64,000 nt of DNA. Origin: Octopus vulgaris (Eukaryota). The translations under genes were made by a program, and so were the position numbers. Shown piece by piece: positions 7,275-7,955 of the stretch. The notes below the pieces were generated by a model that was given only the letters and a program-made list of their open reading frames with translations, made no database searches and had not been told where the DNA came from. The number at the start of each line of letters is the position of its first letter. Position 1 is the first letter of the stretch. The stretch spans positions 49,662,001 through 49,726,000 of the forward strand of contig OX597826.1 of NCBI GenBank assembly GCA_951406725.2. Direction: 5' to 3'.

Positions 7275-7482
7275 CAGTTATGGACTGCGGTCATGCTAGG
7301 ACATAGCCTTGAAAGGTTTTAGTCGAAAAACTTGTCCACGGGAGTTATATTTTCAATACTGGCACTTATTCCATCGTTCTCTTTTGCCGAAACGCTATGA
7401 TACAAAAACGTAAACAAAGCAACACAAGTTTTCAAGCGGTGGGTGAGGGCAAACACAGCACACACACACTCATGCATACATG

Positions 7483-7529
<47 letters not shown>

Positions 7530-7694
7530 GGGTTAAATGCAACAAGTTGCTCAAAACCGTTTTGAGCAACTTGTTGCATTTAACCCTTATTTATAATTAT
7601 TATAACCCTTACCAAATATGGTCTTTTCCATACCGATAAATCTACTAGGTGAAATTGATTAATTTTATTAAATTAATTACATTCCACCCTTTAT

Positions 7695-7739
<45 letters not shown>

Positions 7740-7744
7740 GTGTG

Positions 7745-7781
<37 letters not shown>

Positions 7782-7955
7782 GAGCACACGCACACACGCA
7801 CACACAGACACATCGGGCTTTCAAATAATATCCGTCAACCAAATTCATTCACAATGTTTTGGTTGGCCCTGGGCTATAGTAGAAGAGACTAGCCCAATCC
7901 AAAGTACCACATCGTAGAAGTGAATCAAAGACCACATGATTCAGAACCAAATTTC
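7275..7955 (-). mobile_element. Degenerate SINE family B copy split by an insert in its internal (TA)n
   Basis: 3' half at 7275-7470 (gactgcggtcatgct..ttttgccgaa) and 5' half at 7812-7955 (cgggctt..gctatagtagaaga). Confidence 0.7.
7521..7595. repeat. Perfect palindrome, 37-bp arms with 1-nt spacer, in a (TA)n-flanked module (7521-7700)
   Basis: TATAAATAAGGGTTAAATGCAACAAGTTGCTCAAAAC-C-GTTTTGAGCAACTTGTTGCATTTAACCCTTATTTATA. Confidence 0.95.

What the first reader, a model, noticed from the sequence alone, without database searches (positions are those of the whole stretch)
7275..7955. SINE B internal microsatellite acts as a repeated landing pad for Penelope-like/hammerhead modules
Three independent SINE B copies (7275-7955, 21590-22352, 29277-29910) are split at their internal (TA)/(TG)n linker by different 170-280-bp modules, and a fourth module abuts a SINE B half at 46545. 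One is palindromic, one carries a hammerhead, and others belong to a hammerhead-bearing family. The SINE therefore spreads the target of another retroelement class. It could also place ribozymes downstream of a Pol III promoter. This SINE-microsatellite-ribozyme chain is the best candidate for an undescribed system here.
Basis: partly seen in the sequence, partly recalled or inferred. Interest (0 to 1): 0.7.

Follow-up and report, generated by a model that had tools for sequence, protein, structure and literature searches.

The report
Penelope fragments inside SINE TA repeats
Three old copies of a common short jumping element carry broken ends of unrelated Penelope-type jumping genes in their internal TA repeat, but TA repeats elsewhere in this genome are hit at least as often, so this is likely ordinary pile-up of one mobile element inside another rather than a new system.

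Summary
Observation real; the proposed system is not supported. Three SINE B copies are split at their (TA)/(TG) linker by fold-back end fragments of different hammerhead-bearing families. Two families were traced to coding Penelope-like elements (PLEs): Hydra-type (29462) and Neptune-type (46584). One is a 559-bp tandem retrozyme-like unit (7521); one has no coding partner found (21901). In 1.36 Mb sampled across the genome, 14 of 131 SINE-linker (TA)n sites carry such a module against 98 of 699 other (TA)n sites (OR 0.73, CI 0.41-1.33). Of 127 module copies found by sequence, 15 lie in linkers (12%; linker share of sites 16%). Hit SINEs are old (79% vs 92% identity). No window chimera is replicated. 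The only hammerhead in sense behind a SINE promoter has a T5 run, a predicted Pol III stop, just before it. PLE preference for (TA)n and PLE hammerheads are published. What survives: the SINE passively supplies about one sixth of (TA)n sites, and a roughly twofold excess in old linkers is not excluded (9 of 34, p=0.08). Earlier scan notes describe tRNA-headed PLEs elsewhere in this genome; I found none on linker targeting.

The parts
7275..7955 (-). SINE B copy 1, old and degenerate (tail 7318-7458, 73% to sample consensus; head alignable 7831-7897, 85%; A and B boxes decayed)
7521..7700 (+). F1 module: 3' end of a 559-bp tandem hammerhead-bearing unit (sense arm 7559-7700, 99.3%) with a 39-nt inverted arm (7521-7559, 100%); unequal ends; no ribozyme in this copy; (TA)n both sides
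21592..22353 (-). SINE B copy 2, old (tail 72%, head 83%); head starts at consensus position 24, so the A box is missing
21901..22108 (.). F2 module: fold-back end piece of an older hammerhead-bearing family (about 89% to other copies); no ribozyme in this copy; coding partner not found
22110..22186 (+). short 3'-end piece of an F4-like (Neptune-type) family, antisense to the SINE; no ribozyme
   Evidence: 81% over 47-53 nt
29279..29910 (+). SINE B copy 3 (head 80%, tail 82%; A and B boxes recognisable; 16-nt deletion in head)
29462..29630 (+). F3 module: inverted long-tail arm (29462 to about 29546) plus sense arm with hammerhead and short end; both arms 95-96% to the two ends of a Hydra-type PLE insertion (L264/L263)
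29547..29551 (+). T5 run, predicted Pol III terminator, between the SINE promoter and the ribozyme motif
   Evidence: termination at T runs is established knowledge, not tested
29559..29596 (+). minimal type I hammerhead motif: core CCGAUGA (U4C, the family majority), an A.G mismatch closing helix II, palindromic helix III, predicted cut after 29592
   Evidence: sequence; census; the predicted minimum-energy fold is not the hammerhead and z is near 0
46402..46544 (-). SINE B tail fragment (consensus 69-201, 75%), no head
46584..46780 (-). F4 module: 5'-truncated 3' end of a young Neptune-type PLE (98%), with hammerhead-like motif at 46681-46718 (core CUGUUGA, A6U)
29111..29247 (-). older F4-like piece outside any SINE linker (control case)
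50940..51080 (-). older F4-like piece outside any SINE linker (control case)
12213..12622 (+). young uninterrupted SINE B (reference). Others: 14381-14792, 33734-34218, 42475-42866, 49170-49569, 53193-53506, 58169-58453, 62161-62548

Best explanation
The inserts are independent, truncated fold-back ends of several hammerhead-bearing Penelope-type elements that sit in (TA)n tracts throughout this genome, and the SINE linker is likely hit simply because it is one such tract, at no more than the background rate. Steps: (1, shown) SINE B, about 0.4 million copies, has a short TATATATGTATA(TG)n linker in young copies. (2, inferred) Slippage lengthens its TA part after insertion. (3, from the literature, inferred here) A PLE GIY-YIG endonuclease nicks a (TA)n tract and the reverse transcriptase copies only the RNA's 3' end, often folding back, which leaves an inverted arm and unequal ends. 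(4, shown) Inserts build up with time, so old SINE copies carry them. (5, inferred) The chimeras are dead ends: not copied again and unlikely to give a Pol III ribozyme transcript.
For: Sample of 136 ten-kb stretches (1.36 Mb): 14 of 131 linker or half-linker sites occupied vs 98 of 699 others, OR 0.73 (0.41-1.33). Intact linkers alone: 4 of 80 (OR 0.32, p=0.02). Broad library: 15 of 131 vs 121 of 684. Mantel-Haenszel OR by TA length 0.82 (strict) and 0.66 (broad). Module-centred: 15 of 127 distinct copies in linkers, 11.8% (CI 6.8-18.7), against a 15.8% share; 94 of 99 have TA on at least one side. Occupied SINEs: median identity 79% vs 92%, p=1e-4; the 99%-identical F1 insert sits in a 73-85% SINE. 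F4 continues upstream into an RT + CxxxxCxxC linker + GIY-YIG ORF in 8 loci (Pfam RVT_1 E=8.5e-4, GIY-YIG E=7.5e-3, both below cut-off). F3 bounds an RT ORF with RWK and DKT motifs and a C-terminus with CxxC and CxH, as described for the Hydra clade, which inserts in (TA)n (PMC8557442 section 11). F3 orientation in linkers is mixed, 6 same-sense and 4 opposite, each with a different fold-back junction (read).
Against: Old SINE copies (<85% identity) are occupied at 9 of 34 (26%) vs 14% of all other sites: OR 2.2, p=0.076 strict; OR 1.7, p=0.25 broad. Against TA tracts on the outer side of equally old SINEs: 4 of 25, p=0.53. A modest age-matched preference is therefore not excluded. Half-linker sites alone are 10 of 51 (20%). 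The window itself is rich (3 of 11). The module library was built from the same sample and misses singleton families: two linker inserts seen by eye (L133, L169) were not counted, and counting them gives about 16 of 133 (12%). TA length is measured after insertion. No coding partner was found for F1 or F2, and Pfam gave no match for the F3 ORF. No expression data.
Confidence: 0.85

Rival explanations
1. SINE linkers are a moderately preferred target once age is controlled (for instance through open chromatin at Pol III promoters); the excess of young, not-yet-hit SINEs hides this.
For: Old linkers 9 of 34 vs 98 of 699 (OR 2.2, p=0.076); 3 of 11 in the window.
Against: The difference weakens with the broad library (p=0.25) and against age-matched outer-flank tracts (9 of 34 vs 4 of 25, p=0.53; broad 9 of 34 vs 6 of 25, p=1.0). 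Young linkers are hit less than tracts flanking young SINEs (5 of 97 vs 12 of 61, p=0.007). The youngest family, F4, is in a linker in only 2 of 29 copies.
Confidence: 0.1
2. SINE + module chimeras form a mobile or expressed unit: a Pol III promoter driving a self-cleaving ribozyme RNA.
For: One copy (29277) has an intact-looking A/B box head in sense with a hammerhead motif, and same-sense F3-in-linker cases recur (L267, L273, L274). Unchecked scan notes describe a different PLE family with a tRNA-like head in this genome.
Against: A T5 run lies 12 nt before the core, and longer F3 copies have T runs upstream too, whereas the SINE consensus has no T4 run. Two of three inserts have no ribozyme and sit behind decayed or truncated heads. 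A 46-nt stretch spanning the 29277 head-linker junction occurs once in the genome. Full-length matches to the 7275 and 21590 inserts were the window itself or copies with other junctions. Single metazoan minimal hammerheads showed no detectable cleavage in vitro (PMC4209133), and U4C and A6 changes lower activity (PMC3088659).
Confidence: 0.04
3. The fold-back modules are palindromic DNA transposons (MITE/foldback type) that target TA, not retroelement ends.
For: They look palindromic and sit in TA.
Against: Fold-back centres differ from copy to copy and the arms have unequal ends. Families carry hammerhead motifs. F3 and F4 run into RT-bearing ORFs, and F1 forms head-to-tail arrays. The link is unproven only for F2.
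Confidence: 0.01

Closest known systems
Hydra-clade PLEs (Craig et al. 2021, PMC8557442; passages, sections 3 and 11 read)
   Same: F3 partner has RWK, DKT, C-terminal CxxC and CxH, a hammerhead, (TA)n insertion, an inverted 5' copy and a one-sided tail.
   Different: Tail is about 70 nt rather than 30-40. Hammerhead core is CCGA(U/C)GA in 72 of 91 motif hits. No tree was built; the only long copy has an internal deletion.
Neptune-type PLEs (PMC8557442, passages; clade features partly recalled)
   Same: F4 partner has RT with DKG, a CX2-5CxxC linker, GIY-YIG with CCHH-type cysteines and histidines, a 3' hammerhead motif and (TA)n targeting.
   Different: Core is CUGUNGA (A6U) in 61 of 63 motif hits. 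The linker is shared with Nematis, so the clade is not fixed without a tree.
Non-LTR retrozymes / non-autonomous PLE pLTR arrays (bioRxiv 10.64898/2026.07.22.740005, part 1 of 5 read; PMC4209133, parts 1-2 of 4 read)
   Same: F1 is a 559-bp head-to-tail unit with one type I hammerhead per unit (U3-A8 covariant core, reported for PLE hammerheads) and no ORF seen.
   Different: The window copy is only the terminal 180 bp; the mobilising partner is unknown.
Octopus tRNA-derived SINEs OR1/OR2/OK (Ohshima and Okada 1994; seen only as citations in PMC5804259 and PMC4758252, passages)
   Same: tRNA-like head with A and B boxes, very high copy number.
   Different: That SINE B is OR2, or a CORE SINE, is recalled, not tested. 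An internal (CA)n in a mollusc SINE is reported for Haliotis MESC SINEs (PMC4758252).
Poseidon PAc mechanism (PMC11167929, part 1 of 4 read)
   Same: Internal initiation of reverse transcription explains the unequal-end tail; AT-rich cleavage preference.
   Different: Different clade; nothing on SINE targets in the part read.

Membership tests
Penelope-like element (EN+), F4 | PLE-type RT with C-terminal GIY-YIG in one ORF, upstream of the end module | tested here: met
   L283 818-aa frame; GIY-YIG about 1.1 kb upstream of the module, same strand, in 8 loci; Pfam hits weak, below cut-off
Neptune clade, F4 | CX2-5CxxC linker before GIY-YIG | tested here: met
   CPRPRCHTC in L226; shared with Nematis
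Neptune clade, F4 | phylogenetic placement of RT | not tested
   no reference proteins fetched
Hydra clade, F3 | RWK motif and DKG changed to DKT | tested here: met
   RRLRWKAF and NSDKTRN in L264 ORF
Hydra clade, F3 | CxxC and CxH either side of the EN's conserved E and N | tested here: met
   CNLCLLEK ... LNQRSELMNLCRH in L252, joined to the same 3' UTR
Hydra clade, F3 | CxCX5C linker; absence of CCHH | tested here: inconclusive
   region deleted in L263/L264 and outside L252
PLE insertion signature, F1-F4 | 5' truncation, inverted adjacent copy, one-sided tail | tested here: met
   the F4 window copy is truncated without inversion
PLE insertion signature, F1-F4 | (TA)n target | tested here: met
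   94 of 99 copies with TA on at least one side, 63 of 99 on both
PLE, F1 and F2 | linked RT/EN ORF | tested here: not met
   no tblastn hit tied to these modules in fetched loci; search shallow; they work like PLE ends, membership unproven
Non-LTR retrozyme, F1 | tandem non-coding units each with a type I hammerhead | tested here: met
   array of about 8 units spaced 559 bp at G000:C2:84.288-84.292 Mb
Minimal type I hammerhead | conserved core CUGANGA...GAAA...UH with three helices | tested here: inconclusive
   architecture present, but cores deviate family-wide (U4C in F3, A6U in F4); single-strand folds unremarkable; Rfam's listed top 150 of 467 matches held no hammerhead
Minimal type I hammerhead | self-cleavage | not testable with these tools
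   needs an in vitro assay
tRNA-derived SINE (SINE B) | A and B boxes, no internal T4, high copy number | tested here: met
   box motifs recalled
CORE SINE / Octopus OR2 | similarity to the CORE domain or OR2 consensus | not tested
   no reference sequence available from a tool
Proposed SINE landing-pad system | enrichment over other (TA)n | tested here: not met
   OR 0.73 (0.41-1.33); 15 of 127
Proposed SINE landing-pad system | replicated SINE head + module chimera | tested here: not met
   searches score only the best 40 candidates
Proposed SINE landing-pad system | transcripts ending at the cut site | not testable with these tools
   no raw RNA reads listed

The most novel reading that the evidence does not exclude
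SINE B is a target factory for Penelope elements: it seeds about one sixth of the genome's (TA)n sites, its aged linkers are hit about twice as often as other tracts, and rare same-sense hits hand a Pol III promoter to a hammerhead end. This would be the route by which tRNA-headed Penelope/ribozyme families (noted, unchecked, elsewhere in this genome) are born.
Probability: 0.06. Interest if true: 0.6.

Novelty: already known. Interest (0 to 1): 0.14.

Why it matters
As found, it matters little: it is nested insertion by elements whose (TA)n preference and ribozymes are published. It does give a number: about 16% of (TA)5+ sites and about 12% of PLE-type insertions in this genome lie in SINE B linkers, so one retroposon passively supplies targets for another. 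It also shows a (TA)n-targeting, Hydra-type PLE family abundant in a cephalopod-type genome, and family-wide non-canonical hammerhead cores that could be assayed. If the novel case held, it would explain how SINE-like Penelope derivatives arise.

Tried and rejected
Rfam scan: the listed matches were microsatellite noise; no hammerhead among the 150 shown of 467. ARAGORN: 0 tRNAs in the window. RNA folding of the hammerhead motifs: z from -1.26 to 0.31, uninformative for dimer-type motifs. Protein search 39 used a low-complexity frame by mistake; its loci were still usable because they hold the same 3' UTR, but they were therefore selected by UTR, not by ORF. The first enrichment run had another SINE's sequence in the F2 library and counted one Helitron-borne event three times. 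It was redone with a cleaned library and 2 rows dropped (L158, L181). 17 module loci that duplicate the same place or a duplicated segment, plus the self loci and L264, were dropped before the module-centred counts. Pfam found nothing on the F3 ORF. Literature searches (listings only) showed no paper on SINE linkers as PLE targets; most subscription papers are not searched. The supplement of PMC8557442 (family lists that include Octopus) was not opened and may already hold these families; bioRxiv supplements are closed. Scan look-ups gave nothing relevant. Rejected: MITE/foldback DNA transposon; assembly artefact (the modules recur genome-wide with their own junctions).

Full report
Setting. 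The window is G000:C13:49662001-49726000 in a 2.8-Gb genome, about 24% simple repeat. It is probably an octopus, from my recall of the SINE sequences and from unchecked scan notes; I did not test this. SINE B has a 163-nt tRNA-like head, a (TA)/(TG) linker and a 202-nt tail. 190 heads of 100 nt or more in 1.36 Mb imply about 0.4 million copies.

Observation. Pairing heads with tails gives 11 real copies in the window. The interrupted copies are old (72-85% to consensus); of the eight intact ones, five have both halves at 92-98%. The element at 46402-46544 is a headless tail fragment lacking its first 68 nt.

What the inserts are. F1 (7521-7700) is the end of a 559-bp unit that forms head-to-tail arrays starting and ending in (TA)n, with an inverted final unit. 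The unit has a type I hammerhead with a U3-A8 core, a variant reported in PLEs (PMC4209133, parts 1-2 of 4). The window copy is 99% identical to the unit but stops short of the ribozyme. F2 (21901-22108) is a fold-back end of an older family whose longer copies show a CUGAUGA hammerhead. Next to it lies a short F4-like end (22110-22186). F3 (29462-29630) matches at 95-96% the two ends of a 2.8-kb insertion that encloses a 441-aa RT frame with RWK and DKT motifs; a second copy links the same 3' UTR to a C-terminus with CxxC and CxH. These are the features given for Hydra-clade PLEs, almost all of which insert in (TA)n (PMC8557442, section 11). F4 (46584-46780) continues upstream, in 8 loci, into an RT + cysteine linker + GIY-YIG frame of Neptune type. 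Truncation, an inverted adjacent copy and a one-sided tail are the published PLE signature (PMC8557442 passages; PMC11167929 part 1 of 4).

Enrichment test 1. I took 136 ten-kb stretches at round-number positions on 27 contigs. Sites were defined as merged tracts holding (TA)5 or longer. A library was built from repeated TA-abutting flanks (61 clusters); 24 clusters with hammerhead or fold-back evidence formed the strict set and 35 the broad set, plus F1-F4. Same-locus hits were ignored. Strict (830 sites): intact linkers 4 of 80, half-linkers 10 of 51, outer flanks of SINE B 16 of 86, flanks of SINE A 1 of 17, free tracts 81 of 596. Linker plus half, 14 of 131, against 98 of 699 gives OR 0.73 (0.41-1.33), p=0.33; stratified by TA length 0.82. 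Broad: 15 of 131 vs 121 of 684, OR 0.60. Two rows from one Helitron-borne event were dropped, and two linker inserts seen by eye were missed by the library; adding them gives about 12%.

Enrichment test 2. Of 127 distinct F1-F4 copies found by module sequence alone, 15 lie in a linker or half-linker (11.8%, CI 6.8-18.7%), against a 15.8% share of sites, p=0.27. These searches score only the best 40 candidates each.

Age. Occupied SINEs have median identity 79% against 92% for empty ones (p=1e-4). Against my reading: old linkers alone are occupied at 9 of 34, about twice the overall background (p=0.076 strict, 0.25 broad). They do not clearly exceed tracts beside equally old SINEs (4 of 25, p=0.53), and young linkers are hit less than tracts beside young SINEs (5 of 97 vs 12 of 61). 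A modest age-matched preference remains open. The window's 3 of 11 is high (P=0.011 to 0.11) but was chosen after the fact.

Chimeras. Ten F3-in-linker cases have mixed orientation (6 same, 4 opposite) and different junctions (read). A 46-nt stretch over the 29277 head-linker junction is unique in the genome. The one replicated SINE/PLE composite found (L131, L158, L181; 94-98% identical) lies inside a unit of about 2.3 kb with Helitron-like TC...CTAG ends and has the SINE tail only.

Ribozyme behind a Pol III promoter. Only copy 29277 has both. A T5 run at 29547-29551, made by the fold-back, precedes the core by 12 nt, while the SINE consensus has no T4 run; Pol III would be predicted to stop there. 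The core is U4C, as in 72 of 91 F3 motif hits, and F4 has A6U in 61 of 63 (hits include overlapping loci). U4C and A6C are reported to lower activity, though a U4C viroid stays infectious (PMC3088659, passages). Single metazoan minimal hammerheads showed no detectable cleavage (PMC4209133). Expression could not be examined.

Comparison and verdict. The mechanism is published: (TA)n-biased PLEs with hammerheads. A repeat annotation of Octopus vulgaris lists SINEs at 11.6% of the genome and recently active Penelope families, with no mention of nesting in the passages seen (PMC13282606, part 1 of 3 and passages). I found no paper on SINE linkers as PLE targets in searches (listings only), but my data show no special relationship to report. 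The true residue is passive: the SINE supplies about one sixth of (TA)n sites and about one eighth of PLE-type insertions. Interest 0.14.

Noticed in passing
L131:1376-2823, L158:about 6630-8980, L181:3760-5711: A non-coding unit of about 2.3 kb with Helitron-like ends (5' TC, 3' hairpin + CTAG) and an internal 107-bp tandem repeat carries a SINE B tail, a fold-back PLE-type piece and a second PLE-type fragment as cargo; 3 copies in 1.2 Mb, 94-98% identical.
   Followed up: partly
window 29563-29569 and 46681-46718; many loci: Family-wide non-canonical hammerhead cores: CCGA(U/C)GA in 72 of 91 F3 hits, CUGUNGA in 61 of 63 F4 hits; a further family (e.g. L116:4316-4350) also has CCGACGA. Activity unknown.
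   Followed up: partly
L263/L264 (G000:C4:94.926-94.929 Mb), L252, L296: Hydra-type PLE coding sequence in this genome; a 42%-identical relative at L296 suggests more than one family.
   Followed up: partly
L061:2272-4548: Array of about 355-bp units, each with a canonical CUGACGA hammerhead, 5 on one strand and 2 inverted: a second retrozyme-like family.
   Followed up: no
L023:1572-2841: F3 hammerhead region amplified as a 43-bp tandem minisatellite.
   Followed up: no
window 9336-10262 and about 25400-26850: Decayed non-LTR retrotransposon (RT and zinc-finger) fragments of two copies.
   Followed up: no
window 56662-58208, 14825-16372, 31646-32150: Clusters of tandem and nested SINE A copies.
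   Followed up: no
random sample, clusters 0-60: Dozens of distinct TA-abutting repeat families; about 14-18% of (TA)5+ sites carry a PLE-type end, so these elements are a large and probably under-annotated part of the genome.
   Followed up: partly
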